Assembly: GCA_035549255.1 (NCBI GenBank)
Contig: DASZRD010000004.1
Location: 8,667 to 72,666 of the forward strand
Direction of reading: 5' to 3'
Length of the DNA: 64,000 nt
Source of the DNA: Minisyncoccota bacterium
Lineage (GTDB): Bacteria; Patescibacteriota; Minisyncoccia; Phycocordibacterales; SBAW01
Shown here: positions 949 through 18,630 of the stretch, in pieces
Position numbering within the stretch: the first letter of the stretch is position 1
Layout of the letters: each line of letters begins with the position of its first letter
Program-made: the position numbers and the translations under genes
Notes under the pieces: generated by a model
Databases searched by the model: none
What the model saw: the letters and a program-made list of their open reading frames with translations, nothing else
Told to the model about the DNA's origin: nothing

Positions 949-978
949 CCCCGACGATTTCTCGCCGGGGTCGAAACT
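947..978. terminator. Imperfect GC hairpin between convergent tsaD and the 987..1322 ORF (gaccccgacgatttctcgccggggtc)
   Basis: Inverted repeat seen directly after the tsaD stop codon. Confidence 0.35.
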
Positions 979-986
979 TGGAGGGC

Positions 987-1322: not shown

Positions 1323-1450
1323 TTGAGACCTCTATGGAAAGGAACAGTACGCGACATTGCGTACGCATTAACTATATCATAATTTATACAAAATAGCAAG
1401 TCTCTCCTTGACCCTTCTAAAAAAGCCTTATTTGGCGTAGTATTTGCTCT

Positions 1451-3571
<2,121 letters not shown>

Positions 3572-3587
3572 CCTATATACTAGAGGC

Positions 3588-4328: not shown

Positions 4329-4346
4329 CCTTTCATCTTCGTAGCT

Positions 4347-4865: not shown

Positions 4866-4891
4866 AAAATCCCCTTCCGGGGGATTTTTTA
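4865..4891 (+). terminator. Rho-independent terminator (aaaaatcccc-ttcc-gggggatttttt)
   Basis: Perfect GC stem followed by a T-run immediately after the hsp20 stop. Confidence 0.7.
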
Positions 4892-4927
4892 GTAAATAGC
4901 CCTGCACACATTTCACTTCGTTCAATG

Positions 4928-5000
4928 TGCTTGGGGCCAGGATCGAACTGGCGACCCCCTCCTCTTCAGGGAGATGCTCTACCAACTGAGCTACCCAAGC
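4928..5000 (-). tRNA. tRNA-Phe (anticodon GAA)
   Basis: Reverse complement gcttgggtagctcagttggtagagcatctccctgaagaggagggggtcgccagttcgatcctggccccaagca folds as a cloverleaf with a GAA anticodon loop. No CCA is encoded. Confidence 0.85.
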
Positions 5001-5045
5001 GTTACTAGAGGATTCTAGCAGAAATGCCCCTATTTAGAAACCCCG

Positions 5046-5366
5046 TTATCGCGAATTGGTTGTTGTGCCCGTGCCGCCGCCCTGGAATTGCTGTATGGCG
5101 TTTTGTGCTTGCTCCTGGAGATTTTGGATATTGCCATAGAGGCCAAGTATCTTTTGCAGATATGGTTGGAGATATAGATACGAATAGTACGAGGCGACGA
5201 TGATCGCTACGATCCAAAGCAGACGTACTGCGTACGAAAGCCATGTACCGCGGCGCACGGCATGGAGCATCTTATTGTTCTCCTGCGCAAGTGCGATATT
5301 CTGGCGCATCAATTCCTTAAGCTCCTCCACCGATGACGACTGAGGTATTTCTTGTTGCGGGTCCAT
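5046..5366 (-). CDS. Small hypothetical membrane protein (106 aa, one TM)
   Basis: ORF with a hydrophobic segment LLWIVAIIVASYYSYLYL. TATAAT lies 6 nt upstream of the ATG (tagcatataattggtgtATG), suggesting a leaderless transcript. Confidence 0.4.
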   Translation of the reverse strand: MDPQQEIPQSSSVEELKELMRQNIALAQENNKMLHAVRRGTWLSYAVRLLWIVAIIVASYYSYLYLQPYLQKILGLYGNIQNLQEQAQNAIQQFQGGGTGTTTNSR

Positions 5367-5400
5367 ACACCAATTATATGCTACATTTTGTCTTGTCCAT

Positions 5401-5472
5401 GCCGCTATAGCTCAATGGATAGAGCAATCCCGTCCTAAGGGAGAGATGTGGGTTCGATTCCTGCTAGCGGCA
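5401..5472 (+). tRNA. tRNA-Arg (anticodon CCT)
   Basis: gccgcta...tagcggc acceptor stem, D-arm gctcaatggatagagc, anticodon loop gtCCTaa, T-loop ttcgatt. Confidence 0.75.
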
Positions 5473-5479
5473 CAAAGAG

Positions 5480-5511
5480 AAAACCCGCCAAAAATATCTC
5501 AGGCGGGTTTT
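5480..5511. terminator. Bidirectional hairpin (aaaacccgcc-N12-ggcgggtttt) between tRNA-Arg and the glutaredoxin-like gene
   Basis: GC stem flanked by A-run and T-run. Confidence 0.6.
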
Positions 5512-5535
5512 CTTACAGTTATTAGTGAGATCAGA

Positions 5536-5778
5536 CTATGCCGCGATGCCGAGCTTCTGGGCCAGGCGGTCGCGCGAGAAGCCGATCATGATATCACCGT
5601 TGATGACAATGACAGGCACGCCGAGCTGCCCCGTGAGCTCTACCATCTCCGCGCGCTTCTGCGCATCGCTTGCGACATCGTAGGCGGTATACTTGACGCC
5701 CTTCTCAGCGAAGAATTCCTTCGCCATCTGGCAGAAGTGGCAGGTGGGCGTGCTGTAAATAGTTACGTTCTTGTCCAT
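5536..5778 (-). CDS. Glutaredoxin-like protein (NrdH/YruB-type, CxxC)
   Basis: 80-aa thioredoxin-fold ORF with a TCHFCQ active-site motif and GVPVIVING. Confidence 0.7.
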   Translation of the reverse strand: MDKNVTIYSTPTCHFCQMAKEFFAEKGVKYTAYDVASDAQKRAEMVELTGQLGVPVIVINGDIMIGFSRDRLAQKLGIAA

Positions 5779-5838
5779 AGCATTTATTGTTATTACTTAC
5801 TTTCTAGTATAGCATACGTGTCAAGCCCTCTCAGGGTT

Positions 5839-5909
5839 GCGGGATTAGTTTAGTGGTAGAACATGTGCTTCCCAAGCATAGGGCGCGAGTCCGATTCTCG
5901 CATCCCGCA
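5839..5909 (+). tRNA. tRNA-Gly (anticodon CCC)
   Basis: gcgggat/atcccgc acceptor stem, anticodon stem tgtgc/gcata with loop ttCCCaa, T-arm gcgag-tccgatt-ctcgc. Confidence 0.8.
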
Positions 5910-5922
5910 CAGAAACGCAGTC

Positions 5923-6321
5923 CTACAGCGAAAAAAGCGAGTGGAGAAGATTAGCCACCGGGTTGCTCGAGGAGGTGGCCTCTTGCGCTGTCGGGGCTAT
6001 GTCATTGCGCACGATATCGATCTCTCCTTCGCCGGGCAAAGCCACGCCGAAGCGCTCGCGCGCCTCGCGATCGAGCCCGTCGGGAGAGTTGAACGACTCG
6101 ACTGTCGCGCTCATATGCGCCTCATCCTGCTCGGCGCTCGCGAGCTGGGCCTCCGTCTCGTCGCGGCCGGCAGCGGCAACCCTGAAGGTGCCGTACATCC
6201 CCCACGCGGAAGAGACCGCGAAGCACGATATGCCGAAAAGGACGATCGTGGCAAGGAAGGTGGCGCCAAACCGTACGGCGTAGTGAACTCTTTTGCTGTG
6301 GGGCTTTCTAAATTCTTGCAT
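5923..6321 (-). CDS. FtsB/DivIC-like septum-formation initiator family protein (start ambiguous, alternative GTG at 6339)
   Basis: N-terminal TM, then a coiled-coil and the C-terminal motif PDGLDREARERFGVALPGEGEIDIV, similar to FtsB family ends. Confidence 0.45.
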   Translation of the reverse strand: MQEFRKPHSKRVHYAVRFGATFLATIVLFGISCFAVSSAWGMYGTFRVAAAGRDETEAQLASAEQDEAHMSATVESFNSPDGLDREARERFGVALPGEGEIDIVRNDIAPTAQEATSSSNPVANLLHSLFSL

Positions 6322-6340
6322 ATCTGCTAGGATGGGCACA

Positions 6341-6452
6341 TGTTCGGGCTATTCGGCAAACACCGCGACCGCTTTACCAAGATCTTTGCTTGGGTGGTCG
6401 GCACGCTCGTTATCGCGAGCATGATCGTAGCGTACTTCTCGCTACTCTTCTA
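6341..6452 (+). CDS. Possible small membrane peptide (37 aa, MFGLFGKHRDRFTKIFAWVVGTLVIASMIVAYFSLLF)
   Basis: Unlisted short ORF followed by a perfect GC hairpin at 6484..6511 (gggccgcagcgc-ttgc-gcgctgcggccc). Confidence 0.3.
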
Positions 6453-6638
6453 ACTCCTGAGCGTGCACCCTATCACGAGGAGGGGCCGCAGCGCTTGCGC
6501 GCTGCGGCCCTGTGCTCCACATACTACACCTATCCGACATCACTAGCAAACAAGCCATTGTGTGGATATCCCCCGCCCCCTATTTGCGCACCCGTACAGG
6601 AGGTATATAACTAGAGCCAGTTACCAGGGAGGAAGGTC

Positions 6639-6809
6639 ATGCCTATCAACTGGGTTCTATTGGCGGTAATCGTTCTTGCGGCAATCATCGTATTCATCAT
6701 CTTCTTCGTCTTCGGCGCAATGAAAGCAGCCAGCGACGCCGATGACGAGATAGAGCGGTGGGAGGAGGAGGCCGGCCTCCGCAAGAAATCCGATCGGTCA
6801 TCCATCTAG
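6639..6809 (+). CDS. Possible small membrane protein (56 aa)
   Basis: An agggaggaagg RBS lies 6 nt upstream. The TM segment is VLLAVIVLAAIIVFIIFFVFG. A terminator follows. Confidence 0.35.
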   Translation: MPINWVLLAVIVLAAIIVFIIFFVFGAMKAASDADDEIERWEEEAGLRKKSDRSSI

Positions 6810-6830
6810 TTTCAACAGCCGCCCCAGAGG
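6804..6830. terminator. Bidirectional rho-independent terminator (aacagccgcccc-agag-gggcggctgtt)
   Basis: Perfect 12-bp stem. It sits at the 3' end of both the 6639 ORF (+) and the LamG operon (-). Confidence 0.65.
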
Positions 6831-6878
6831 GGCGGCTGTTTACTACCTAAAAACCCTTGCAGTTACTGGCCAGTTCGC

Positions 6879-8969
6879 CTATCGACCCATTTGGTAAAGC
6901 TGAGCCACCTCGCTCGCCGAGAGCGCGCGGTTGTAGATGCGGACGTCGTCTATAGAGCCCGGGAAGTAATTGCCCGCCCCGCAGCCGCTGGACCCCGCCT
7001 CGGAGCCGATGCAGTCGCGTATGGCGCTGGTGTAGCGGATAGCACCGCTCGGGCTGGTGTTGTCCGAGACGTCGACGCCGTTGACATAGAGCCGGAGGGT
7101 CTCGCCGTCGTAGGTAGCCATGGCGTAGTACCAGGTATTCTGCGCGATATTGGTATCGGTTACATAATAGTAGGTGCCGCCGATGTTGACCGTGGCATCG
7201 AGCCCCGTGACGGTGTCATTGAAGGCGAGGCTGTAGCCGCCCGACTCGGTCTTGGAGAGAATGCGGGTGTTGGTGGTTGTGCTGGTAGCCCTAAACCACG
7301 CGCCAAAGGAGATGGTAGTGGGCTCGAGCGTGACGCTGCGCGGTATCGAGATATATGAGGCACTGCCGTCAAATTTGAGCGCCTGGCCGACCTTCCCTGC
7401 CACGGGCGCGGTGGTCGTGCCCAAGCTCACGAGCGTGCCGGTGTTGCCCGTGCCGCTCATATCGGCGATCGTATTTGAGCGCCAGTTGATGGTCGAGCCG
7501 TCCATAGTCCAATAGCCGACCAGGCCGGAGTTGATATTCCCTGCATTAGTCGTAGGCCCCGGCGAGTGTGCGATATTGGTCTGACCGAGACGATAGAGCT
7601 GGGACACCTCGCTAGCGGAGAGAGCGCGGTTGTAGACGCGGATATCATCGAGATAGCCCGAGAACCAGTCGCCCGAATTCCCGCCCACGAAGGCGACCGG
7701 ACACCCGTAGGTTTTTGAAATGGTTCCCACAGCCGCGCCGTTGGCATAGAGCGTCGCGGTACCGGTGTTGTTGACGAAGACGAGATACGTCCAGGCGTTC
7801 TGCGGCACGGTATAGGAGGGCGAAAAGGTGTCGTCCGAGACACCGTACGCCGTCTCGCCGGCTATGGTATTGCCCACCTGCTGCACGCGCAAACTGTATT
7901 GGCCGCTATCCATCATCGGGTAGCCGTGCGACTGGCTGGCGCTGTTGCGCAAGTTTACCCAGCCGGTAACCGTGCATGGTGCGGAGACATTTGAGCCCGA
8001 TGTGGGGATATACGCTCCCGATGCAAGCGAGAGCGCCTGACCTATCTTCCCTGCCACGGCAGTTATGGCACCGCTCACAGAGGTAAGCGTGCCGGTGATG
8101 CTGCCGACGATATCCTGCGTCGTCGGGCCCGCCCAATTAGTGGTGTTGCCGTCCATAGGCCAATAGTCAACCAGGCCCTTAGAGAGCGGTGCGGCGCTCG
8201 AGTGGCCGAGGGTGGCTCTCTGACTCTGTAGGGAGCTGATGTCGCTTTGGGTAAGCGCGCGATTATATCCCTTGAGGTCGTCTATCTGGCCGTTGAAATA
8301 GTTCGCAAGATCGCTGCAGTGGCCCGAAGCGCTGGTGAAGCTGCAGCCCTGCTGCGGGTAGCCCGCGAGAAAGTAAATGTCGTCGGGCGGCGCCCACGCG
8401 CCGCTTTGTGTGCCCTGGAGCACTCCGTCAACATAGAGCGACTGCGTCTGCGCTATGCCGTCGTAATAGAGGACGACGTTGTACCATTGCCCCGCGTTGA
8501 TAGGAGAAGAAGCGATGTCGCCGATGTTCCAGAAGCCGGCATAAAATGCGCCGTTGTAGATGCCGACGAGCGTATAGTGGTAGCCCGAGCTCGGCGCGCC
8601 ATCGCCTTCTTCGGTGAGGACACTCTGCTCGGTGGCCACGTCATTAGCCTTTACCCACATCGAGAGCGAGACGGAGGTCGGGAGCGAGCCGATGAGGCCC
8701 CAGGCGTATTGATTGGTACCATCAAGCGTGAGCGCCTGGCCATTGTGGCCGGCGGCGACGGATGCGCCATTGACGAGCGTGAGATTGTGCCCGTTGCCCG
8801 AGAGGTCGGAGACCGTGTTGCCGCTGACCGTACTGGAATCGAAGGACCAGTACGCGGTCACGCCCAGCTGATTAGCCGGCACCGAGATCGTGCTGATCCG
8901 CGCTGCGGCGTCAGCCGTAAGCGGCAGGAAAAACAGCGCGGCAAAGAGCATGTAGAAAGTCTTTTTCAT
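6879..8969 (-). CDS. Secreted LamG-domain (concanavalin A-like lectin/glucanase) repeat protein, 3 modules
   Basis: Signal peptide MKKTFYMLFAALFFLPLTADA. Three modules each end in the motif DD(I/V)R(V/I)YNRALSASEV(S/A)QLY, characteristic of Laminin_G_3 repeats. Confidence 0.75.
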   Translation of the reverse strand: MKKTFYMLFAALFFLPLTADAAARISTISVPANQLGVTAYWSFDSSTVSGNTVSDLSGNGHNLTLVNGASVAAGHNGQALTLDGTNQYAWGLIGSLPTSVSLSMWVKANDVATEQSVLTEEGDGAPSSGYHYTLVGIYNGAFYAGFWNIGDIASSPINAGQWYNVVLYYDGIAQTQSLYVDGVLQGTQSGAWAPPDDIYFLAGYPQQGCSFTSASGHCSDLANYFNGQIDDLKGYNRALTQSDISSLQSQRATLGHSSAAPLSKGLVDYWPMDGNTTNWAGPTTQDIVGSITGTLTSVSGAITAVAGKIGQALSLASGAYIPTSGSNVSAPCTVTGWVNLRNSASQSHGYPMMDSGQYSLRVQQVGNTIAGETAYGVSDDTFSPSYTVPQNAWTYLVFVNNTGTATLYANGAAVGTISKTYGCPVAFVGGNSGDWFSGYLDDIRVYNRALSASEVSQLYRLGQTNIAHSPGPTTNAGNINSGLVGYWTMDGSTINWRSNTIADMSGTGNTGTLVSLGTTTAPVAGKVGQALKFDGSASYISIPRSVTLEPTTISFGAWFRATSTTTNTRILSKTESGGYSLAFNDTVTGLDATVNIGGTYYYVTDTNIAQNTWYYAMATYDGETLRLYVNGVDVSDNTSPSGAIRYTSAIRDCIGSEAGSSGCGAGNYFPGSIDDVRIYNRALSASEVAQLYQMGR

Positions 8970-11092
8970 TTGCCGAGATTGTAGAGCTGCTTCGCTTCGT
9001 TTGCGGAGAGAGCGCGGTTGTAGACGCGTATCTCGTCGATATCACCTGCAAAGGGCGACGAGGGGGAGCTAATGAGCTCGTAGCCGTCGGTCCAGAGGTC
9101 CATGCTGCCAATACTCGAGAACCAGTTCGATGTCGATGAGCTCCCGCTCGTATAGCCCAGCCCCACGGCGGAGCCGTCGATATAGAGCGTATTGCCTAAA
9201 GAATTGACGGTGAAGGTCAGCTGATGCCACTTGGTGTCGTAGGCCAGGGTCGCCGTGGCCCGATAGAAGTCGCTTGAGCCCTTGAGCAAGAGAGAGATGG
9301 TGCCGCCAGCAGTGTAGAGCAGGCGGAAGATGTTGTTGTTGGTGCCCGACTGGCCGAGGTAAATGAGCGAGCCGTTAGTGTCGGCCGTGCGGCGGAACCA
9401 CACGCTCACACTCCCCTGAGTGTTGCCGGAAATCGCGGAGACGACCGAGGTATTGCGGATATAATCGCCCATGCCGTTGAAGTGAAGCGCCTGGCCGAGC
9501 TTGCCCGCGACCTTCATCGAGCTAGTCGCCACCGAGCCGTCGGCGTAGCCATTGTAGCCGCCGATCCTGTCATAAATTTTATCGGTCACATCGATGCCGT
9601 TGAGGCTCCAGTATGCCACGAGCCCGCTCGCGAGCGAAGAATTGTCGGAGAGGGTGATTGCGTTCGCGACTTTAGCCGCGCCTTCTTGATAGAGCTGTTT
9701 TACTTCGCCTGCCGAAAGCGCGCGGTTGTAGACCCGTACGTCGTCGATAGGACCCTTGAAAAAGTTGCCCGGCGAGTTTGACACATACTCGGAGCCGATG
9801 AGCACATTGGTCGTGGGGGTAGGCGTGCTGCAGGCATCGACCGTCGAAGTATCGAGCGTGCCGTTGATATAGAGATACTTCGTGGTCCCATCGAAGACGC
9901 CGACGACGTGATACCACGCACCGGGAGAGAGTACCGCATTGGACGTGAGAGTAAACGAGCCACAATCGCGCTGCAATTGAAGGTGGTTCGTCGATGAGAG
10001 GTTCAAGATCCACTGACCCGTAACGCCCGAATTAAACTTGGATACGATGGTTTGCGCTCCGGTAGCCGTGGTCTTTACCCACGCGCTTACGGCGAACGGC
10101 GCAGTGCCGGAAAAGCTCAGTATATTGCCGAGGTTGACATATGAGCTGCCGCTTAACGAAAGCGCCTGCCCCAGTTTTCCCTGCACGAGCATCGAACTAG
10201 TCGCAACCCCTCCACCGACGTAGCCGTTATTCCCCTGCCCGCTACTGTCCTGGATGGTGGTGCCTATGGTCGAACCGTCAAAGGTCCACCAGCCGACCAG
10301 GCCGTTTTTTAAGGTCGAGCCGCCCGCGAGCGTGCCCGCCGAGGTGTTGTACTTTACGCTCGTGGCGTTGTAGAAGTTGGCTACCTCGCCTGCCGAAAGC
10401 GCGCGATTGTAGATGCGGATGTCGTCGAGCGAGCCGTTATAGTAGGCACCCCACGTTTGTGCGTAGCCTATATAAAACGGTGCTGCACCGATGATGTTGG
10501 CGGTATCAGTACTGCTGCTATCGAGTACGCCGTTAACATACCAATAGATGGTCCCGCCGGTGCGCACAAACGTGGCCAGCGTCCACACTCCTGTCGGAAT
10601 CGTGGCAGTAGTAAGGAAATTGTGCTGTTGCGTAAGTCGCACATCAAGGTGTCCCGGATGACCAGAGTCTTGGTATATCTGCCACCCATTGTCCGAGTCA
10701 CTCGATTTTTGGCCTATGAGCCCGATTGTTGCGCCGGTGCCCCATGGCGAAGAAGGTTTGATCCAAAACGAGACGGAAAAATCTCCCGTACCAAAATTAT
10801 AGGCAGAAGTAAATCCGCGGCTCGCGACCTGAATGGAAGAGCTGTTAAACGATAGTGAGGAACCAATCTTGCCGGGAGTCCATGTTGGAGAGTTGTAGAG
10901 ATCAAGATTGTAGCCGTTTCCGCTGTAGTCGCGTGCCGTGGCACCGCTTCCTTCGTCAAACTTCCAATAACTCAAGAGACCGAAATTGTTGGCGGGCGTG
11001 ATGATCGCAGCCTGCGCAGCATTCGCCCATGCAAAGGCGACGTAGACGATAATACTCGCGAGGATAATCTTATGTTTTAGCGAAATTGCCAT
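8966..11092 (-). CDS. Secreted LamG-domain repeat protein, 4 modules
   Basis: Start placed at MAISLKHKIILASIIVYVAFAWANAAQA (signal peptide). Four modules end in IDD(I/V)R(I/V)YNRALSAGEV..LY. The stop overlaps the downstream LamG gene by 4 nt. Confidence 0.75.
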   Translation of the reverse strand: MAISLKHKIILASIIVYVAFAWANAAQAAIITPANNFGLLSYWKFDEGSGATARDYSGNGYNLDLYNSPTWTPGKIGSSLSFNSSSIQVASRGFTSAYNFGTGDFSVSFWIKPSSPWGTGATIGLIGQKSSDSDNGWQIYQDSGHPGHLDVRLTQQHNFLTTATIPTGVWTLATFVRTGGTIYWYVNGVLDSSSTDTANIIGAAPFYIGYAQTWGAYYNGSLDDIRIYNRALSAGEVANFYNATSVKYNTSAGTLAGGSTLKNGLVGWWTFDGSTIGTTIQDSSGQGNNGYVGGGVATSSMLVQGKLGQALSLSGSSYVNLGNILSFSGTAPFAVSAWVKTTATGAQTIVSKFNSGVTGQWILNLSSTNHLQLQRDCGSFTLTSNAVLSPGAWYHVVGVFDGTTKYLYINGTLDTSTVDACSTPTPTTNVLIGSEYVSNSPGNFFKGPIDDVRVYNRALSAGEVKQLYQEGAAKVANAITLSDNSSLASGLVAYWSLNGIDVTDKIYDRIGGYNGYADGSVATSSMKVAGKLGQALHFNGMGDYIRNTSVVSAISGNTQGSVSVWFRRTADTNGSLIYLGQSGTNNNIFRLLYTAGGTISLLLKGSSDFYRATATLAYDTKWHQLTFTVNSLGNTLYIDGSAVGLGYTSGSSSTSNWFSSIGSMDLWTDGYELISSPSSPFAGDIDEIRVYNRALSANEAKQLYNLGK

Positions 11093-11652
11093 GTTTGGAA
11101 TATCTGCCGCAGGAGGTCGTCCAGTCGCGCATAGGTCGAGATCTGGTAGAGGTTGCCGCGGAAGACAAACCATACTTCGCGCGAGTCGCCGCCGAAGGCA
11201 TCGTTGTTGCTCTTGAAAGCGAGCCCCGTGTAATGTTCGCCGACCTCGACCGGCTGCGGGTCGAGGATCTCGAGGTCGGGCACGTCTTGGTGGATGCGGT
11301 CGGCCGTGAGCGTGTAGCTCCCTGTTGTATCCTCATCGAAGGGCGATACCGCTATCTGGATGCCGTTATCGTTCTGGTCTTGGAGCACGATAGTCTCAGG
11401 CGTGCCATCCGGGTCGCCGGGGATATCCTGCGCGGTGAAGTCGGCAGGCATTTTGAGCGAGAAGTTGTAGATAGAGTTGTCGTACTCTTTGGTGAGCGCG
11501 GGCACGACGTAGGGCGGCTGCGATGGTTGATCGCTAGAAGGAGCCCAGGATGCGGGGACCAATTTTGTCGCACCATATGCGGCAAAGCCCAAGAGTATGA
11601 GCGCTATTGCGACTAGAAAGATGGTCCGCTTTTTTCTAAATGGGTACATCAT
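11077..11652 (-). CDS. Membrane-anchored hypothetical protein (191 aa, N-terminal TM, extracytoplasmic domain)
   Basis: ORF tightly packed between the giant fibre gene and the LamG gene, with TM segment IFLVAIALILLGFAAYGA. Confidence 0.5.
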   Translation of the reverse strand: MMYPFRKKRTIFLVAIALILLGFAAYGATKLVPASWAPSSDQPSQPPYVVPALTKEYDNSIYNFSLKMPADFTAQDIPGDPDGTPETIVLQDQNDNGIQIAVSPFDEDTTGSYTLTADRIHQDVPDLEILDPQPVEVGEHYTGLAFKSNNDAFGGDSREVWFVFRGNLYQISTYARLDDLLRQIFQTWQFR

Positions 11653-11671
11653 TGTCTGTAAACGATAGCGA

Positions 11672-14600
11672 TTAATTTTGCGGAGTTGAGGAAGCGTCCG
11701 ACGAGTCGCTCGGTGCAGGGTCGCTTACGGGCGGCGTTGACGATGCGTCGGTGTCGGGCGCGGGCGGTGTCTCTACGGTGAGTGGCGTAGAGCTTGCGGT
11801 GTCGTCGCTTGAAGTAGGTGGAGTCGAGGTCGCATCATCGCTGGACGCCGTAGGCGTTGATGTCGCGTCGTCGGAAGGCGTAGGCGCAGGAGACGGGGTA
11901 CCCGCGCTCCCCTGCCCGCTTGCATTGACCATCGCAAGGAACTGCGCCTGCGTCACGCACACGCTACCAACGCACAGCTTGTCGGTGTCGACCTCCTTGG
12001 CGTGGAAGATCGTCGCGTAGAGGTCGTGGATGCCATTCTGCGCATCGCCGAGCCATGCGATGAGCGTCGCTTTGAAGTTGTCACCGAGGTTGGCTATCTG
12101 CTGTATGGCCGCGGCAAGATACGGCGTGAAGCCCGCGTAATTGAGCGTAAGGTAGCCGCTGGCGGTGTCGGTCGCTACAAGGTCGGGGAAGACTTTCTGA
12201 ACATCCTGCGCGATGAAGCCGCTATGCTCCGGCGTGCCGGTGGCCTCGGTGAGCCAGTTGTAGAAGACCGGATCGAGTGCCATTACCAAGGCGAGCGATG
12301 AAGAGGCATTGATCGACGTGATGTTGGTCTTGAGGCGCTCGTCGGAGGAGCAGCCAACCGAGCCGGATGTTGGGTTGATGGTGCACGAGCCGGTGCCGTT
12401 GGTGAAGCGCGCGACGATAGCGCCGGTCGTCGAGGTGGCGACATCGAGGAGGTACGCGGGCGCCTGGGTCCCGATACCGACGCCGAGATTATTGATATTA
12501 CCCGTGCCATCGGCCGTGCCGTAGATCGTGAGCACCGGCGATCCACCCACGTTTGCCGTGTAGCTTTCGACCGTGCCGGCCGATGCGGAAGAATCGACGG
12601 GGAGATCGGCCCAGCTTACGATGCCCGCGTCGGTGTCGAAGTTGAGCGAGCCGATCGCGAGGTTGTTGATTGATGTAATGCCGCTGTTGAGGTTGTAGAC
12701 CAGATTGCCATTGCCGACATTCAATCCCCCGGAGATAGTCGAGGTTGCGGTAGTAGAAGTGGCGTTAATGGTAGCGCCGACAATATCGCCAGCTACTGAA
12801 AGTCTTGCATAGGGAGAGGTAGTGCCAATGCCTAGGTTGCCGGTTGCTAAAAGATTAACAAGCTGATCGTTGGAATAGAAGCCCCACGTGAGCGCGTTAC
12901 TTGATGAGCCGCTTGAGGAATATTTGAAGCCCATATAGCCGCTGTTGTTAAGTGCCGCATTCACTCCGGTAAGCTGCGTCAACAGGATATGGCCGGTCGT
13001 GAGATTCGGTGCAAGCACTACTCCGCCCCATACATACGTCGTGTCATTGGTAAGAGTCATGTTGAGGAGTCCGGGTCCGACGCTTGCATTGCCCGAACTT
13101 CCGCTTATCGAGAGCGACGCGATGGGACTCGTCGTGCCGATGCCAACATTGCTGCCAAAGTACGCAGTACCTGTCGTTGTGGCACCGCCTGAAATAGTGA
13201 GGCCGCCCTGCTGCGTGCCATCGCCTATCGTCGTTGAGGCATAGAGGTTAAGCGATCCGCCGCCGGCCGCGAGACAGGTGCCATTTATCGCATAACAGCC
13301 GCTCGTGATGTTGATGCCGTTGGCGACGGTGGCTGAACCAGTTTGATCTATCGAGAAGAGCGACGAGCCGCTCGTCGAGGCGATGGTGAACGGATTATAG
13401 CCCGCGGTGCCGAGTATGCTAAGCGATGCTGCAGGCGACGTCGTGCCGATGCCGACGCGGAGGTTCTGCACTCCGCCAGTGCCATTGCTCTCGCCGTAGA
13501 CGGTGAGCACCGACGTGTCGCCGATATTGATCGATTGCGATTGTATGACGCCTGCCGCGGCGCCGCTGTCGACCGGAATGTTAGAGAGTGCCACCACGCC
13601 CGCGTCGGTGTCGAAGGAGAGATTGCCTATCGAGAGGTTGCTGATGGTCGTCGTGCCGCTTGAGGAGTCAACGGTGAAGGCGTTGGAGCCGTTGGCGCCG
13701 ACGGAGAAGACGCCGCTGTTTGAGACCGTGAGAATGGAAGTCGAGGCAGAGTTGGCAACCTCGAGCGCGTTGCCCGCAGTCGATGAGCCGCCCCATACCG
13801 TGAGCTTGGCATAGGGCGAAGAGGTACCAACACCTACATTGCCGGACGACTTGATAACGAATTGCGGATTGATCGAATTATCTTCAACCGAGAGATAATC
13901 CCCCGAGCCGGTGCCATTCTTGCGCACGATCAATCCCGTCGAGTTATTGAAATTATTGAATACGTTCACTCCTGCCTGTCCGCTAGCCGCCGTAAGAACC
14001 GAGTTAGAGTTGCTGAGATATAATGCCGATGTCCCCGACAATTGAAGGGTCCCGTTCGCGGAGAAAAAGCTGCTAATGCTCGCCGAAGGCAGCCTACCGA
14101 TCCCCACGTTGCCCAGGGTATCGATCGTAAAGAGCGTCTTAGTGGAAGAGCCGATCACGAATGCAGGGCCCGAGATGCCGTTGGGGTTTACCGAGAGCTG
14201 CGCCCACGGCGAGGTGGTGCCGATGCCGAAGCTGCCGTCGGCGGTGAGGCGAGCCTTCTCCGTATTATTGGTGAAGAATCCTATCGGATGATTTGAGAAG
14301 TTGCCGATATAGAAGCCTGGCGTGCCCAAGGGGCCGGTGCCGAGGCCGTCGGCATAGAATTGCGAGGCGACTGCTTGGTTATCCGCATAGAGGATCGCCC
14401 CCGCGTAGGACTGGCCGCTCGTGTTGGTATTCGAGAGCGTATAGCGCACGCCGCGCGAATTGTTAACGCTCTTCTGAGCGAAAAGGGTTTCAAGAGGATC
14501 ATATCCGCCGATATCTATGTTGCCGCCGAAGTATGCGTTCCCGGTCGTTGTGGCGCCGCCGCTTATCGTGAGGCCGCCCGCCGGCGCGCCGTCGCCAATA

Positions 14601-16480
14601 GTGGTCGAGGCGTAAAGATTGACTGAGCCTCCGCCGCCAATGATCCCAAGGCTCGATGTGGAAACGTTGACCCACTTGCTGCCGTCGTATTGGAGCAGGT
14701 CGCCCCATGCGGGCGAAGAGGCATCGACATCGGTGAGCGCGGAGAGTGCCGAAGCGCCGCCAGTGCTTGAGCCGTTGAAGGTGGAGTTGGTGATAGTCGC
14801 ATTAGTGATCGTGACGCCGCTCAAATTGCTCACAATCTGGCTGAGCGCCACGTTGTTGGTGTAGCCGCCGGTCGAGTATTGCCCGTAATCTATCGTGCTC
14901 CCCTGCGGCTGCACCGAGCCCGCATTCTGGTAGATCAGGCTGCGGAGGTTGTTGTTCAATTGGCTCAGCTGGTCGGCAAGCGAAGATTGCGTAACGTAGT
15001 TGGAAGCGAGGAATTGTGTGGAGGGCGCCGGCACAATAGCTGCCGGAGCGGATTGCACGGGCTGCGCATTCTTTATTGCCGGAGAATGAGCATCTTCGCC
15101 TTGCGACAGGGCAGCCATGTCTGCGCCCGGAGCGCTTTGGACAGGCACAACAACGGTCGTAGTGGGGTTGCCTTGAGGCGCTATGGCAAGATCCGGCTGA
15201 GCGGGAGCAAAGATGCTGTTCCACCAATCGCCCACTGCGTTCCAAACCGATGCCGTGTTGCCCTGTGCAATCGCGATACGTGGCAGGGACATATGCGAAG
15301 GAACGTCGCTTACATATGCGAGCGACGCTGCGGCAGCATCGGATGCGTTTTGCGCGACCGAGAGGCTTCCCTCAAGCCAGAAGCCGAGCGCCGCTGCGCC
15401 GGCGTTTACTTGCGTCGTAACGCCGTCGGCAAGCGTTTGATACATATGCGCTTGCGCATCGCCCATCGCATCGGCCCACGCAACGAACGCATTGCCGATG
15501 TTGTAATACAGGGCCGCTTGGGTGTCGGCCATCGCGTTGCCTGCCGATTGCAAGGCGTAGTACGTACCGGCAGTCTCCTGCACCATGGCGCTCGTCATAT
15601 CGCGCATGAACGCAAGCGGGACCGAGGCGATACTGCGTGCGAGCGGCCGCGCGCCGTCATTCCAAAAGGCTACCGCGCGCGCAGAGCTTTGCAGGTCGGT
15701 CGTCACCGCGTCGCCGAGCGCCGCGTAGATGCCTGCCTGCGCGTCGCTCATGTCGTCGGCCCAATCGACGAAGTTCCGAGTGAATGAAAATTCAATCTCA
15801 GTCTGCGCGGCAAGCGCGACATTCACAGCGTTAGTGATCAAGCCATAGCCAACAGATGCCGCTTGCGTATCGAGGGCGACGCGATCCTGAATATTCCTAG
15901 ACAGGGCGAGCGGGACTGCGGCAACTAAGTTCGCCCCGCTTGCAAAATTCTCAAGGGTCAGGGTTTGAGACATGTCGGCACGCGCCGCGGCAAGCACCGC
16001 AGCGGCATTATCGCGCGGCAGCGGGGCAGCAGCCATCAGAGGCACGACTTCGATGCTCTTATACGACGCCGGCTGTCGATACGCATCGGCCAGCACTGAG
16101 AGCGGAAGTGATTGCGCAAACGAGAGCGCCCAGGCGCCTACGAAGATGATGAGCACCGCGAGCGGAGCGAGCGCGTTGTAGCGGAAGAACGGCGAGAAGT
16201 TGTTCGCCTGCTTTTTCTTTTTTGGCTTGCGCTCCGGCGCCACCGACTGATATTCACGCTTAAGGTCCTCGGAGAGCTGGGTCTTCCGGGCCTCCTTAAT
16301 ATTTTTCATCTCCCGAAGGTACTTCTCCAGAGACCACGCGCTCACGTACCACGTGCGGCCTCTGAGCTCCCCTTCCACTTTGCCGCGACGGCATAGCAGG
16401 GTTACGTAATCGCCGGTTACGCCGAAGAGCTTGGCCGCTTCGGCCGAGGGGATTTTATTCTTCTCAAAATCTTGTTCCAT
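11672..16480 (-). CDS. Giant (1602 aa) chimeric cell-surface fibre protein: N-terminal HTH (excisionase/HTH_17-like), one TM, tail-fibre-like repeat shaft, Peptidase S74 intramolecular chaperone domain, C-terminal Ser/Thr/Pro tandem repeats
   Basis: HTH region AEAAKLFGVTGDYVTLLCRRGKVEGELRGRTWYVSAWSLEKYL. TM segment FFRYNALAPLAVLIIFVGAWALSFA. At least 5 copies of G(N)(V/L)GIGTTSP.A.LS(V/I). S74-like SSDERLKTNITSI...GFIAQDVQKVFPDLV...AAIQQI. Confidence 0.8.
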   Translation of the reverse strand: MEQDFEKNKIPSAEAAKLFGVTGDYVTLLCRRGKVEGELRGRTWYVSAWSLEKYLREMKNIKEARKTQLSEDLKREYQSVAPERKPKKKKQANNFSPFFRYNALAPLAVLIIFVGAWALSFAQSLPLSVLADAYRQPASYKSIEVVPLMAAAPLPRDNAAAVLAAARADMSQTLTLENFASGANLVAAVPLALSRNIQDRVALDTQAASVGYGLITNAVNVALAAQTEIEFSFTRNFVDWADDMSDAQAGIYAALGDAVTTDLQSSARAVAFWNDGARPLARSIASVPLAFMRDMTSAMVQETAGTYYALQSAGNAMADTQAALYYNIGNAFVAWADAMGDAQAHMYQTLADGVTTQVNAGAAALGFWLEGSLSVAQNASDAAAASLAYVSDVPSHMSLPRIAIAQGNTASVWNAVGDWWNSIFAPAQPDLAIAPQGNPTTTVVVPVQSAPGADMAALSQGEDAHSPAIKNAQPVQSAPAAIVPAPSTQFLASNYVTQSSLADQLSQLNNNLRSLIYQNAGSVQPQGSTIDYGQYSTGGYTNNVALSQIVSNLSGVTITNATITNSTFNGSSTGGASALSALTDVDASSPAWGDLLQYDGSKWVNVSTSSLGIIGGGGSVNLYASTTIGDGAPAGGLTISGGATTTGNAYFGGNIDIGGYDPLETLFAQKSVNNSRGVRYTLSNTNTSGQSYAGAILYADNQAVASQFYADGLGTGPLGTPGFYIGNFSNHPIGFFTNNTEKARLTADGSFGIGTTSPWAQLSVNPNGISGPAFVIGSSTKTLFTIDTLGNVGIGRLPSASISSFFSANGTLQLSGTSALYLSNSNSVLTAASGQAGVNVFNNFNNSTGLIVRKNGTGSGDYLSVEDNSINPQFVIKSSGNVGVGTSSPYAKLTVWGGSSTAGNALEVANSASTSILTVSNSGVFSVGANGSNAFTVDSSSGTTTISNLSIGNLSFDTDAGVVALSNIPVDSGAAAGVIQSQSINIGDTSVLTVYGESNGTGGVQNLRVGIGTTSPAASLSILGTAGYNPFTIASTSGSSLFSIDQTGSATVANGINITSGCYAINGTCLAAGGGSLNLYASTTIGDGTQQGGLTISGGATTTGTAYFGSNVGIGTTSPIASLSISGSSGNASVGPGLLNMTLTNDTTYVWGGVVLAPNLTTGHILLTQLTGVNAALNNSGYMGFKYSSSGSSSNALTWGFYSNDQLVNLLATGNLGIGTTSPYARLSVAGDIVGATINATSTTATSTISGGLNVGNGNLVYNLNSGITSINNLAIGSLNFDTDAGIVSWADLPVDSSASAGTVESYTANVGGSPVLTIYGTADGTGNINNLGVGIGTQAPAYLLDVATSTTGAIVARFTNGTGSCTINPTSGSVGCSSDERLKTNITSINASSSLALVMALDPVFYNWLTEATGTPEHSGFIAQDVQKVFPDLVATDTASGYLTLNYAGFTPYLAAAIQQIANLGDNFKATLIAWLGDAQNGIHDLYATIFHAKEVDTDKLCVGSVCVTQAQFLAMVNASGQGSAGTPSPAPTPSDDATSTPTASSDDATSTPPTSSDDTASSTPLTVETPPAPDTDASSTPPVSDPAPSDSSDASSTPQN
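11675..11905 (-). repeat. In-frame tandem repeats (~33-nt units) encoding an SDDATSTP(T/P)(A/T)S low-complexity tail
   Basis: Protein tail PSDDATSTPTASSDDATSTPPTSSDDTASSTP... Direct DNA repeats are visible at about 11780..11890. Confidence 0.5.
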
Positions 16481-16510
16481 GGCGCTTGGCGAAATAGCGA
16501 GACGCAGAAA

Positions 16511-16537
16511 GGGCAGATCGCCGATTGCGATCTGCCC
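16511..16537. promoter_or_regulatory. Perfect 11-bp-arm inverted repeat (GGGCAGATCGC-cgatt-GCGATCTGCCC) in the 5' leader of the giant gene
   Basis: Seen directly, 31-57 nt upstream of the ATG at 16480. Candidate operator or RNA hairpin. Confidence 0.35.
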
Positions 16538-16689
16538 TGTTGCTTATCAGCATACTGCCGAACGCGCAGGAGGCACAACAATAAAAATGTCGGCTCTGTG
16601 GATAGCTGGCGAAATAACCTTTCTATATATAGAGGCGACAGGAAAGAAGTTTGAAGGAGGCTCCGCAGCGCGACGGCGCGAGGACCGAG

Positions 16690-16711
16690 CAAATTTTCAG
16701 CAGAAAATTTG
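16690..16711. promoter_or_regulatory. AT-rich perfect inverted repeat CAAATTTTC-agca-GAAAATTTG upstream of the giant gene
   Basis: Seen directly in the 16481..16789 intergenic region. Confidence 0.3.
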
Positions 16712-16789
16712 TGTACTCCTGAGAACTTGCTTTCCTGTTGCCTCTAAAAGAGGCTCTAAAATATAGTGATATCGGCTATGCGAGGTAGC

Positions 16790-18625: not shown

Positions 18626-18630
18626 GAGGA

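What the first reader, a model, noticed from the sequence alone, without database searches (positions are those of the whole stretch)
6879..16480. Co-directional surface-protein operon: giant fibre, small membrane protein, two multi-LamG lectin-like proteins
Four minus-strand genes (16480 to 6879) are packed tightly. The 11077..11652 gene overlaps the LamG gene start by 16 nt. The two LamG genes overlap by 4 nt (8966..8969). The block is closed by a perfect bidirectional terminator at 6804..6830. All products are membrane-anchored or secreted. LamG/ConA-like modules are carbohydrate-binding, and the fibre resembles a phage receptor-binding protein. The locus is therefore a strong candidate host or partner-cell attachment apparatus, relevant if this is an episymbiotic CPR organism. 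No other phage genes flank it, so it is not an intact prophage.
Basis: partly seen in the sequence, partly recalled or inferred. Interest (0 to 1): 0.55.

Follow-up and report, generated by a model that had tools for sequence, protein, structure and literature searches.

The report
Cell-anchored tail-fibre and lectin gene cassette
A tiny uncultured bacterium (Candidatus Paceibacterota) carries a conserved four-gene chromosomal cassette for a membrane-anchored fibre resembling a phage tail fibre, a small adaptor-like protein and two secreted lectin-like proteins; it probably lets the cell bind a partner or surface, but the fibre also has an unexplained DNA-binding domain inside the cell.

Summary
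The four tightly packed minus-strand genes are real. The window comes from a Candidatus Paceibacterota (CPR) genome, and the flanking genes are housekeeping, so this is not a prophage.

New findings:
- **Conserved cassette.** In 28 of 30 assessable related loci the small gene is followed on the same strand by 1-3 LamG genes. A 1,000 to >3,300 aa giant gene lies directly upstream in about 14 loci.
- **Giant protein.** It has a cytoplasmic Xis/MerR-type winged helix-turn-helix, one transmembrane helix, a repetitive outer domain and a C-terminal Peptidase_S74 self-cleaving chaperone with an intact Ser/Lys motif. Only the last 180-280 residues resemble phage distal tail fibres.
- **Small protein.** It is membrane-anchored, has a PsbP/DcrB-like fold, and is the best-conserved member. 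Its stop overlaps the first LamG start by 16 nt.
- **LamG proteins.** The two 3xLamG proteins have Sec signal peptides, no detected anchor, and evolve fast.

Corrections: the closing hairpin is at 6814..6840, not 6804..6830, and has no proper U-tract.

The most likely function is a cell-surface fibre carrying lectin subunits for attachment. This is inferred, not shown. I rate it a new variant of a known kind, of moderate interest.

The parts
16481..16789 (-). Conserved intergenic leader between lepA and the giant gene. It contains invariant blocks and ends in the hairpin listed next.
   Evidence: Alignment of five orthologous intergenic regions shows 57% mean column identity with invariant blocks. 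There is no Rfam match.
16510..16538 (-). Conserved 12-bp hairpin followed by a U-rich stretch, 30 nt upstream of the giant's ATG. It could be a terminator/attenuator or a 5' stabilising stem-loop.
   Evidence: Seen. Fold energy is -23.8 kcal/mol for the centroid, z -4.5. Two stem pairs covary across five loci. A sixth instance is L041.
11672..16480 (-). Giant gene (1602 aa): a membrane-anchored fibre protein, annotated by NCBI as 'tail fiber domain-containing protein'.
   Evidence: Orthologues of 1824-2527 aa lie at the same position after lepA in L001, L003, L004 and L010.
16310..16453 (-). Giant residues 10-57: a cytoplasmic winged helix-turn-helix of the HTH_17 / Xis-MerR type. It is followed by a long helix and a Lys-rich stretch.
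   Evidence: Pfam HTH_17 gives E=0.004, below the cut-off, in this protein. It is found in 26 of 37 relatives, best E=1e-17. The AF2 model has pLDDT 89.8 with a beta-alpha-alpha-beta-beta-helix layout. Foldseek hits are TraN, Xis, BldC and RacA.
16112..16180 (-). Giant residues about 101-123: the single transmembrane helix. Orientation is N-in: 22 K/R before it and an acidic ectodomain after it.
   Evidence: Hydropathy scan and segment composition. 34 of 37 relatives have one such segment 90-260 aa from the N-terminus.
12440..14644 (-). Giant residues 613-1347: two diverged tandem copies of a Gly/Ser/Thr-rich module (613-1020 and 1070-1347). They carry six copies of the motif [VLIF]G[IV]GTxxPxxxLx[VI]. 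This is the fibre shaft.
   Evidence: Internal BLAST gives E down to 1.5e-26. Motif count. Orthologues differ in length by about 900 aa.
12176..12346 (-). Giant residues 1379-1435: the Peptidase_S74 intramolecular chaperone / autoprocessing domain, with the motif S1379-D-E-R-L-K1384.
   Evidence: Pfam PF13884 E=2.7e-17, 63 bits against a cut-off of 22. PHROG tail-fibre families match. The motif is conserved in L001, L003, L004 and L008. A weak PDB match is the phage S16 long tail fibre distal subunit 6f45.
11675..11950 (-). Giant residues 1511-1602: a Ser/Thr/Pro/Asp-rich tail after the conserved Cys motif (KLCVGSVCVTQAQFLAMV). It would be released if the S74 domain cleaves.
11077..11649 (-). 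Small gene (190 aa): an N-terminal membrane anchor plus a PsbP/DcrB-like alpha-beta sandwich. It is the best-conserved member of the cassette.
   Evidence: 287 homologues with no Pfam match. The alignment has 25 invariant columns. The AF2 model has pLDDT 90.6. Foldseek finds PsbP at E=6e-6, with DcrB and EagT6 weaker.
8966..11092 (-). LamG gene 1 (708 aa): a Sec signal peptide plus 3 Laminin_G_3 domains and no anchor found. Its start lies 16 nt inside the small gene.
   Evidence: The same 16-nt overlap occurs in L003, L004, L005, L010, L023 and L024.
6879..8969 (-). LamG gene 2 (696 aa): a Sec signal peptide plus 3 Laminin_G_3 domains. It is a collinear paralogue of LamG gene 1 (29% identity) and has an ATGA overlap with it.
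   Evidence: One-to-one orthology with L004 and L010 is shown.
6814..6840 (.). Perfect 12-bp hairpin with a 3-nt loop, lying between LamG gene 2 and a convergent 56-aa + strand gene (6640..6809).

Best explanation
This is a conserved chromosomal surface-appendage cassette of Paceibacteria, probably transcribed as one unit. It has three components.

**1. Giant protein.** It is inserted in the membrane with its N-terminus inside. A Xis/MerR-type winged HTH sits in the cytoplasm, followed by one transmembrane helix. About 1,250 residues of repetitive Gly/Ser/Thr-rich sequence lie outside.
- The C-terminal Peptidase_S74 domain is inferred to act as it does in phage tail fibres and tailspikes: it nucleates trimer folding, then cuts itself off at Ser1379.
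- That would leave a fibre rooted in the cell membrane with a free distal tip.

**2. Small membrane-anchored PsbP-fold protein.** It is made in fixed proportion to the first LamG protein through translational coupling. It is inferred to be an extracytoplasmic adaptor or chaperone for the secreted subunits.

**3. Two secreted 3xLamG proteins.** They have no anchor of their own and are inferred to be the ligand-binding (lectin-like) subunits. They would be held on the fibre tip or on the adaptor, much as the gp38 adhesin sits on the processed gp37 tip in T2/S16-type phages.

The net function would be binding to a partner cell or a polysaccharide surface.

**Shown:** gene order, overlaps, domain content, predicted folds, conservation and relative evolutionary rates.

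**Inferred:** trimerisation, cleavage, physical association of the parts, ligand binding, and the role of the HTH.
For: **Tight packing and overlaps.**

**Conserved order giant - small - LamG(x1-3).**
- Four close relatives keep the block beside lepA/murJ.
- The order recurs more widely in loci named as Paceibacterota, Adlerbacteria, Kaiserbacteria, Taylorbacteria, Portnoybacteria and Minisyncoccia.
- 28 of 30 assessable loci have LamG downstream of the small gene.
- The 16-nt small/LamG overlap recurs in six other loci.

**Giant protein.**
- S74 domain at E=2.7e-17 with an SDERLK motif that is conserved in orthologues.
- The C-terminal 180-280 aa match phage distal tail fibres: Thermus phage phiFa E=4e-8, T4-like gp37-type proteins, and PDB 6f45.
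- One transmembrane helix, with a basic N-terminal side and an acidic outer domain.

**LamG proteins.** Signal peptides and no anchor domain found.

**Small protein.** High-confidence PsbP/DcrB-like model.

**Evolutionary rates.** LepA 78-80% identity, small protein 63-71%, giant about 52% with large length changes, LamG 43-45%. This is the pattern expected for a conserved core with fast-evolving exposed or ligand-binding parts.

**Not phage or defence.** No phage, defence or toxin content.
Against: - No expression, localisation, cleavage, oligomer or binding data exist.
- No complex prediction could be run.
- The LamG domains were not checked for sugar- or Ca-binding residues.
- The strong conservation of the small protein, the position next to murJ, and the recurrent Beta-lactamase2 neighbours in other lineages fit an envelope-maintenance role as well as an adhesion role.
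- About half of the related loci have small+LamG without a recognisable giant directly upstream, so the fibre may not be an obligatory partner.
- The cytoplasmic HTH has no role in a pure adhesin model.
- A conserved terminator-like hairpin sits just upstream of the giant's start. Transcription of the block may therefore be regulated or interrupted in ways not resolved here.
Confidence: 0.55

Rival explanations
1. Envelope-architecture module. The giant, the PsbP-like protein and the LamG proteins build or maintain the cell's own surface layer, as a wall-spanning scaffold or coat, and do not bind another organism.
For: - The cassette has a conserved position next to murJ and lepA.
- The small protein is almost as conserved as housekeeping genes.
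- Membrane-anchored Beta-lactamase2 (PBP-like) genes recur beside the small gene or beside giant S74 genes in L006, L013, L017, L019, L020, L021, L023, L024 and L070.
- The cassette occurs in loci assigned to many different Paceibacteria groups.
- DcrB, a fold relative, is a periplasmic protein. Its envelope role is from my own knowledge.
Against: - The fast divergence and copy-number variation of the LamG genes, and the length variation of the giant, are more typical of ligand-facing proteins than of structural coats.
- The S74-capped, phage-fibre-like tip is a design known from receptor-binding fibres.
- No S-layer (SLH-type) or wall-binding domain was found in any of the four proteins.
Confidence: 0.22
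2. Transmembrane contact sensor. The giant is a membrane-tethered DNA-binding protein with ToxR-like topology, and its fibre reports outside contact to the chromosome. This could be by transcription control or by DNA tethering, as RacA does. The LamG and PsbP-like proteins would be co-receptors. This can coexist with the adhesin model.
For: - The N-terminal domain is conserved in all orthologues.
- The family matches HTH_17 in 26 of 37 members sampled.
- A confident winged-HTH model is closest to the dsDNA-binding proteins TraN, Xis, BldC, RacA and MerR-family NmlR.
- The module is always followed by one transmembrane helix.
- It heads about 1,954 cluster representatives. Many carry two HTH copies.
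Against: - Foldseek E-values are weak (0.03-0.5) because the domain is small.
- In this protein the Pfam score is below the cut-off (17.7 against 27 bits).
- No DNA target is known.
- S74 cleavage occurs on the outside and cannot release the HTH, unlike in MYRF.
- HTH_17-like folds can also serve protein-protein contacts.
Confidence: 0.15
3. Prophage remnant or domesticated phage tail-fibre module that is still part of a mobile element.
For: - PHROG tail-fibre and virion-structural families match the S74 region and the LamG domains.
- tblastn matches to phage distal tail fibres.
- Published reports that CPR phages encode LamG proteins (PMC11310336).
Against: - There are no capsid, terminase, integrase, tail-tube or lysis genes in the flanks.
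- G+C content is unremarkable.
- The locus is syntenic beside lepA/murJ in at least four related genomes.
- The small-protein family is absent from IMG/VR.
- The giant begins with an HTH and a transmembrane helix instead of a virion-attachment domain.
- Phage similarity covers less than 20% of the giant.
Confidence: 0.03
4. Four independent genes that are merely adjacent, with no functional unit.
For: No transcript data exist. Weak internal terminator-like and promoter-like matches occur, but at chance frequency.
Against: - The 16-nt and 4-nt overlaps and the 19-22-nt gap.
- The same order, and the same 16-nt overlap, appear in distant loci placed in different genomic neighbourhoods, for example after the ATP synthase operon in L005 and before gap/rpi genes in L008.
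Confidence: 0.05

Closest known systems
Phage long tail fibre distal subunit with a C-terminal intramolecular chaperone, plus a separate tip adhesin (T2/S16-type gp37 + gp38). The same Peptidase_S74 chaperone occurs in endosialidase tailspikes and the T5 L-shaped fibre.
   Same: - C-terminal Peptidase_S74 domain with the Ser/Lys motif.
- The preceding about 100-200 residues are similar to phage distal tail fibres.
- The root is at the N-terminus and the tip at the C-terminus.
- Separately encoded binding proteins lie immediately downstream, which suggests an analogy with gp38. This last point is an inference.
   Different: - The root is a cytoplasmic HTH plus a transmembrane helix in a cell membrane, not a virion attachment domain.
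- The gene is chromosomal and syntenic, with no phage genes nearby.
- The downstream proteins are 3xLamG, not gp38-like.
- A PsbP-fold protein is present.
- More than 80% of the giant has no phage counterpart.
MYRF (myelin regulatory factor) and related membrane-bound transcription factors that use a Peptidase_S74-type domain.
   Same: One polypeptide combines a DNA-binding domain, a transmembrane helix and an S74 trimerisation/autocleavage domain. The MYRF description is from my own knowledge. The parts in this protein are documented.
   Different: - The domain order is HTH - TM - fibre - S74, so the S74 domain lies on the opposite side of the membrane from the DNA-binding domain.
- Its cleavage therefore cannot release that domain.
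- The DNA-binding domain is Xis/MerR-like, not Ndt80-like.
ToxR/CadC-type membrane-bound one-component regulators.
   Same: The topology matches: an N-terminal cytoplasmic winged-helix DNA-binding-type domain, a single transmembrane helix and an extracytoplasmic domain.
   Different: - A different HTH class: HTH_17 / Xis-MerR rather than OmpR/PhoB.
- The outer domain is a 1,250-aa (up to >5,000-aa in relatives) fibre, not a small sensor domain.
- DNA binding has not been tested.
Proteins with the PsbP / DcrB / DUF1795 (Eag chaperone) / Mog1 fold.
   Same: The small protein's ectodomain is an alpha-beta-alpha sandwich. Foldseek matches PsbP (E=6e-6, TM 0.46-0.61) and, more weakly, DcrB, EagT6/SciW and TM1622. 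From my own knowledge, these are protein-binding, scaffold or chaperone modules rather than enzymes.
   Different: - There is no sequence-level match to any Pfam, NCBIfam or PHROG family.
- It is anchored by an N-terminal transmembrane helix on the outside of a CPR cell.
- It is genetically coupled to LamG proteins.
LamG / concanavalin A-like proteins of CPR/DPANN organisms and their phages, proposed in the literature as adhesion factors.
   Same: Multi-domain Laminin_G_3 secreted proteins in a CPR genome. An attachment role is speculated in the literature (PMC11310336, PMC12911398).
   Different: Here they are placed in a defined, conserved gene cassette with a PsbP-fold partner and an S74 fibre. 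I found no description of that cassette.
Haloarchaeal Tat-fimbriae subunit TafC (NCBIfam NF052521).
   Same: A partial profile match through LamG-like domains (E=2e-33). TafC is a subunit of a surface filament (PMC11821415, abstract).
   Different: - The score is far below the family cut-off (116 against 410 bits).
- The signal is Sec-type rather than Tat-type.
- It is bacterial.

Membership tests
Peptidase_S74 intramolecular chaperone / autoprocessing domain (PF13884) | Profile match above the curated cut-off | tested here: met
   63.2 bits against a cut-off of 22, E=2.7e-17, residues 1379-1435, covering profile positions 1-57 of 58.
Peptidase_S74 intramolecular chaperone / autoprocessing domain (PF13884) | Catalytic Ser and Lys five residues apart at the start of the domain. 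The dyad spacing is recalled from endosialidase and MYRF. | tested here: met
   S1379-D-E-R-L-K1384 is present. The same S/T-D-x-R-L-K motif occurs in L001, L003, L004 and L008 and in 9 further family members. It aligns with VSSDRRIK of PDB 6f45.
Peptidase_S74 intramolecular chaperone / autoprocessing domain (PF13884) | Trimer-dependent self-cleavage that releases the C-terminal part | not testable with these tools
   This needs protein expression or at least a multimer prediction.
Phage tail fibre / receptor-binding protein | Encoded within a phage or prophage, among tail and baseplate genes | tested here: not met
   The flanks are lepA, murJ, a TPR gene, leuS, tsaD and tRNAs. The locus is syntenic in related genomes.
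Phage tail fibre / receptor-binding protein | N-terminal domain that attaches to the virion | tested here: not met
   The N-terminus is an HTH_17-like domain plus a transmembrane helix.
Phage tail fibre / receptor-binding protein | Sequence similarity over most of the protein to known fibres | tested here: not met
   Phage matches cover only residues about 1183-1470. No phage record covers 80% or more of even the 521-aa C-terminal query.
LamG / Laminin_G_3 (concanavalin A-like lectin/glucanase superfamily, PF13385) | Profile match above the curated cut-off, as repeated domains | tested here: met
   254 and 219 bits against a cut-off of 27.6, with three stretches in each protein.
LamG / Laminin_G_3 (concanavalin A-like lectin/glucanase superfamily, PF13385) | Carbohydrate- or Ca-binding site residues | not tested
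PsbP family (PF01789) / DcrB / DUF1795 | Sequence-profile membership | tested here: not met
   No Pfam, NCBIfam or PHROG hit for the 190-aa protein.
PsbP family (PF01789) / DcrB / DUF1795 | The alpha-beta-alpha sandwich fold | tested here: met
   AF2 pLDDT 90.6. Foldseek versus PsbP structures gives E from 6e-6 to 4e-4, probability 1.00 and TM 0.46-0.61. DcrB and EagT6 are weaker.
HTH_17 / excisionase-MerR-type winged helix (PF12728) | Profile match above the curated cut-off | tested here: inconclusive
   This protein scores 17.7 bits against a cut-off of 27, E=0.004. Among relatives sharing the N-terminal module, 26 of 37 match, best E=1.2e-17.
HTH_17 / excisionase-MerR-type winged helix (PF12728) | The beta-alpha-alpha-beta-beta winged-helix fold | tested here: met
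   The AF2 model (pLDDT 89.8) has E5-7, H8-15, H19-28, E33-36, E39-43 and then a long helix. The closest structures are TraN, Pukovnik Xis, BldC and RacA at rmsd 1.8-2.7 A over 44-57 columns.
HTH_17 / excisionase-MerR-type winged helix (PF12728) | DNA binding | not testable with these tools
   This needs EMSA or DAP-seq.
ToxR-like membrane-bound one-component regulator | OmpR/PhoB-type winged-helix DNA-binding domain | tested here: not met
   The domain is HTH_17 / Xis-MerR-like. Only the topology is shared.
Operon (single transcription unit) | Same strand, short or overlapping junctions, and order conserved across genomes | tested here: met
Operon (single transcription unit) | One continuous transcript | not testable with these tools
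   No RNA data were available.

The most novel reading that the evidence does not exclude
The giant belongs to a large, undescribed class of CPR proteins in which one or two cytoplasmic Xis/MerR-type DNA-binding domains are joined through a single transmembrane helix to a huge extracellular fibre. Many of these proteins are capped by a phage-type S74 chaperone.

The search found about 1,954 cluster representatives, ranging from 79 to 5,533 aa. If the HTH binds DNA, these proteins would physically connect events at the tip of a surface fibre, such as contact with a host cell, to the chromosome of an ultrasmall cell. The link could work as membrane-tethered regulation or as nucleoid anchoring.

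The PsbP-fold protein and the LamG array would be the conserved co-receptor set. The conserved hairpin-containing leader upstream of the giant would be the regulatory input for the cassette.
Probability: 0.15. Interest if true: 0.8.

Novelty: new variant of a known kind. Interest (0 to 1): 0.55.

Why it matters
Most Paceibacteria are uncultured, and how they hold on to partners or surfaces is unknown. Published work only notes that CPR genomes are rich in LamG/concanavalin-like proteins and pili.

This locus turns that vague statement into a defined, conserved and testable cassette. It comprises:
- a cell-rooted fibre built on the phage tail-fibre principle (S74 self-cleaving chaperone);
- a strongly conserved PsbP-fold partner;
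- fast-evolving lectin-like subunits.

The cassette offers concrete targets for cryo-ET, heterologous expression and binding assays. The LamG genes and fibre tip are candidate markers for comparing host or surface specificity between genomes.

The cytoplasmic DNA-binding-type domain on the fibre would be the more surprising result if it is functional. It would be a direct mechanical or structural link between the cell surface and DNA in organisms with very few classical signalling systems.

Tried and rejected
- **Word-index search, whole giant.** It returned only 2 hits, because low-complexity words dominated.
- **Word-index search, 136-aa N-terminus.** It returned nothing, although full HMMER later found 1,954 relatives. 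That search was wasted.
- **Sequence search of the whole giant against the PDB.** Only noise.
- **PDB profile search with the HTH alignment.** It gave only AM32 at E=0.013. AM32's entry codes (4p0y, 4p0z, 4pm3) are the TraN structures found.
- **Rfam.** At gathering and at permissive thresholds it found no family for the lepA-giant leader.
- **Metagenome pattern scan for the leader hairpin.** Of 35 hits, only one (L041) lay in the lepA-to-giant context and the rest were chance. The motif is therefore clade-restricted, or my pattern was too strict.
- **Viral contig scan with the small-protein profile.** No relatives.
- **PADLOC.** No defence-system match.
- **TafC fimbrial family.** Rejected as a membership, because the score is far below the cut-off.
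- **Prophage, polymorphic-toxin and trimeric-autotransporter readings.** Rejected: there are no phage genes, no toxin domain after the S74 domain (only an S/T/P-rich tail), and no beta-barrel anchor. The anchor is an N-terminal transmembrane helix.
- **Paralogues.** No further copies of any of the four genes exist in the 64-kb window.


Full report
**Origin and observation**

The giant ORF is 100% identical to an NCBI protein named 'tail fiber domain-containing protein [Candidatus Paceibacterota bacterium]'. Its contig is CAYTYW010000001.1 of GCA_964442315.1, 179 kb long.

The four minus-strand ORFs exist as described:
- 11672..16480, 1602 aa.
- 11077..11652, 191 aa. NCBI starts it at 11649, giving 190 aa.
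- 8966..11173. The real start is the internal Met at 11092, giving 708 aa with a signal peptide.
- 6879..8969, 696 aa.

The junctions can be read directly in the sequence. There are 19-22 nt between the giant and the small gene. The small gene and LamG1 overlap by 16 nt; the LamG1 ATG is formed inside the small protein's conserved Thr-Trp codons. LamG1 and LamG2 share an ATGA overlap.

The closing hairpin is at 6814..6840, not 6804..6830. It has a perfect 12-bp stem and a 3-nt loop, at about -25 kcal/mol and z -5 to -6. It lies between LamG2 and a convergent 56-aa + strand gene (6640..6809). It lacks a U-run on the minus strand and has only 'UUUAC' on the plus strand, and the terminator scan did not list it.

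The flanks are housekeeping genes: LepA, MurJ, a TPR protein, a PG-binding protein, LeuRS, TsaD, PrsW, HSP20 and four tRNAs. G+C content is unremarkable. There is no prophage.

**The giant protein**

From the N-terminus the protein has these parts:
- **Residues 10-57: helix-turn-helix.** They match HTH_17 weakly in this protein (E=0.004, below the cut-off).
- **Lys-rich stretch and transmembrane segment.** A single hydrophobic segment lies at about residues 101-123. There are 22 K/R residues before it and a net-acidic sequence after it, so the N-terminus is cytoplasmic.
- **Residues 130-420.** An Ala-rich region with an internal repeat.
- **Residues 613-1347.** Two diverged copies of a Gly/Ser/Thr-rich module with six copies of the motif [VLIF]G[IV]GTxxPxxxLx[VI].
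- **Residues 1379-1435.** A Peptidase_S74 domain (E=2.7e-17, 63 bits against a cut-off of 22). It opens with S1379-D-E-R-L-K1384.
- **C-terminal end.** A conserved Cys motif (KLCVGSVCVTQAQFLAMV) and a Ser/Thr/Pro/Asp-rich tail.

Similarity to phage proteins is confined to the C-terminal 180-280 residues:
- PHROG tail-fibre families.
- PDB 6f45, the phage S16 long tail fibre distal subunit, at E=0.057; its VSSDRRIK aligns with CSSDERLK.
- By tblastn, the Thermus phage phiFa distal tail fibre (E=4e-8, 29% identity over 279 aa) and T4-like gp37-type subunits.
- No phage record covers 80% of even the last 521 residues.

The N-terminal module is real and widespread:
- It is conserved in all four orthologues.
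- A full HMMER search with residues 1-136 found 1,954 cluster representatives at E<=1e-3, 87 of them at E<=1e-10. They range from 79 to 5,533 aa, and the match is always near the N-terminus.
- I sampled 37 of them. Of these, 26 match HTH_17 (best E=1.2e-17) and 14 match Peptidase_S74.
- Thirty-four have one hydrophobic segment 90-260 residues from the start.
- Many carry two tandem HTH copies.

An AF2 model of residues 5-85 has pLDDT 89.8. It shows strand, two helices, a beta-hairpin wing and a long helix leading towards the membrane. The nearest solved structures are dsDNA-binding proteins of the Xis/MerR type: TraN, Pukovnik Xis, BldC, RacA and NmlR. They superpose at rmsd 1.8-3.1 A over 44-60 columns, but the E-values are weak (0.03-0.5) because the domain is small.

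**The small protein**

It has no Pfam, NCBIfam, PHROG or PADLOC match. It does have at least 287 homologues at 46-79% identity. In a 40-sequence alignment 25 columns are invariant, mostly in the C-terminal half.

The AF2 model has pLDDT 90.6 and shows an N-terminal helix (the membrane anchor) plus an alpha-beta sandwich. Foldseek places it with PsbP (E=6e-6 to 4e-4, TM 0.46-0.61). DcrB, EagT6/SciW (DUF1795) and TM1622 match more weakly. To my knowledge, proteins with this fold act as protein-binding scaffolds or chaperones rather than enzymes.

**The LamG proteins**

Each has a Sec-type signal peptide and three Laminin_G_3 domains (E=6e-76 and 3e-65). No anchor, wall-binding or catalytic domain was found. 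The two are collinear paralogues at 29% identity, and each has its own orthologue in L004 and L010. The TafC fimbrial model matches only partially and far below its cut-off.

**Synteny**

In four close relatives (L001, L003, L004, L010) the order TPR - murJ - lepA - giant - small - LamG - LamG is kept wherever the contig is long enough to show it.

The wider set comprises 26 species-representative loci (one duplicates L003) plus loci reached through homologues. Their record titles name Paceibacterota, Adlerbacteria, Kaiserbacteria, Taylorbacteria, Portnoybacteria, Minisyncoccia and Parcubacteria; several records carry an 'uncultured Candidatus Saccharibacteria' title. In this set:
- The small gene is followed on the same strand by 1-3 LamG genes in 28 of 30 assessable cases.
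- A 1,000 to >3,300-aa ORF lies directly upstream in about 14 loci. Most of these ORFs are similar to the giant's shaft or S74 region.
- In 3 more loci the giant is separated from the small gene by one or two genes.
- The cassette sits in different neighbourhoods, for example after the ATP synthase operon in L005 and before gap/rpi genes in L008. The linkage is therefore not just inherited context.
- The 16-nt small/LamG overlap recurs in L003, L004, L005, L010, L023 and L024.

Relative identities to L003, L004 and L010 are LepA 78-80%, small 63-71%, giant about 52% with length differences of about 200-900 aa, and LamG 43-45%.

The small-protein family has no relatives in IMG/VR viral contigs.

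**Interpretation**

The best-supported model is a cell-rooted fibre built on the phage tail-fibre principle, with separately encoded lectin-like subunits and a conserved PsbP-fold adaptor. The S74 domain would fold the fibre and then cut itself off. The function would be binding to a partner cell or a polysaccharide surface.

What is shown is the anatomy, the conservation and the pattern of evolutionary rates. Trimerisation, cleavage, assembly of the parts and ligand binding are inferred by analogy with endosialidase, T5 and gp37 fibres and the gp37-gp38 arrangement.

The main rival is a role in the cell's own envelope. Three points support it: the murJ neighbourhood, the strong conservation of the small protein, and the recurrent Beta-lactamase2 neighbours in other lineages.

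The cytoplasmic HTH fits neither model neatly. It suggests a third, more novel reading in which the fibre is coupled to DNA, either with ToxR-like topology or as a RacA-like tether. Unlike in MYRF, S74 cleavage here occurs outside the cell and cannot release the HTH.

**Literature**

Searches found only general statements that CPR LamG/concanavalin proteins may mediate attachment and that CPR phages carry such genes (PMC11310336, PMC12911398). I found nothing on this cassette, on HTH-TM-fibre-S74 proteins or on the PsbP-fold partner. The library is incomplete, so this absence is not proof.

**Verdict**

The attachment function remains an inference.

The added value of this analysis is fourfold: the cassette is conserved across loci assigned to many Paceibacteria groups; the small protein is a PsbP-fold core component; the fibre is an S74-processed membrane protein with a DNA-binding-type cytoplasmic head; and a conserved hairpin-bearing leader precedes it.

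I rate it a new variant of a known kind, with interest about 0.55.

Noticed in passing
window 16481..16789 (minus strand); hairpin at 16510..16538; also L001, L003, L004, L010, L041: The lepA-to-giant intergenic region is conserved. Invariant blocks are 'TAGCCGA.AT.ACTA', 'TATCCACA' and 'GTAT..T'. It ends in a 12-bp hairpin with two covarying pairs, followed by a U-run that is strong in L003, L004 and L010. This lies 30-60 nt before the giant's start. There is no Rfam match. It could be an attenuator, an sRNA terminator or a 5' stabiliser.
   Followed up: partly
Proteins P0123-P0270; window 16073..16480: An N-terminal module heads about 1,954 cluster representatives of 79-5,533 aa. It consists of one or two HTH_17-like domains, a conserved helix and a single transmembrane helix. 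14 of 37 sampled members also end in Peptidase_S74. Others carry Ig-like, beta-helix, NYN or intein domains.
   Followed up: partly
L006 19377-20297 (-), L013 about 17065-18021 (-), L017 7270-8256, L019 6338-7318 and 7338-8324, L020 388-1431, L021 126-1151, L023 8245-9273, L024 929-1918, L070 6616-7563 (-): Genes of the Beta-lactamase2 family (PF13354) recur right next to the small PsbP-like gene or between giant S74 genes in other lineages. The one translation I read (L021) begins with a hydrophobic N-terminal segment, consistent with a membrane anchor. No homologue exists in this 64-kb window.
   Followed up: partly
L070 (JGI 3300068442, 722-kb contig) 1-19832: Three giant S74-containing genes lie in a row (5,104, 1,887 and 1,913 aa), so these fibres form multigene arrays in some CPR genomes.
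   Followed up: no
L011, L020, L022, L024, L006: The small PsbP-like gene is present in 2-3 copies per locus, either in tandem or interleaved with LamG genes. LamG copy number varies from 1 to 3 without a fixed ratio to the small gene.
   Followed up: no
window 6640..6809 (+): A 56-aa ORF with a GGAGG ribosome-binding site and one hydrophobic helix converges on the hairpin at 6814..6840. It is also called as a gene in the NCBI record. Its function is unknown.
   Followed up: no
window 5401..5473, 5839..5910, 4927..5000; ORFs 5446..5853 (+) and 5863..6330 (+): The two + strand ORFs from the mechanical ORF list overlap tRNA-Arg and tRNA-Gly and are probably spurious. The annotated genes there are on the minus strand: a glutaredoxin (5536..5778) and a DivIC-like protein (5923..6321).
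   Followed up: partly
window 11921..12010 (giant residues about 1491-1520) and orthologues: The motif KLC[VI]G(D/S)VCVT(Q/K)xQFLAMV, containing two cysteines, is conserved after the S74 domain in the S74-containing giants read in full here (window, L001, L003, L004); a looser variant occurs in L008 (MVCVDDVCVTKDQFKQML). A variant also appears in the L006 giant (LCVADDSGETCITKAQLDALL), for which no S74 hit was detected. Its role is unknown.
   Followed up: no
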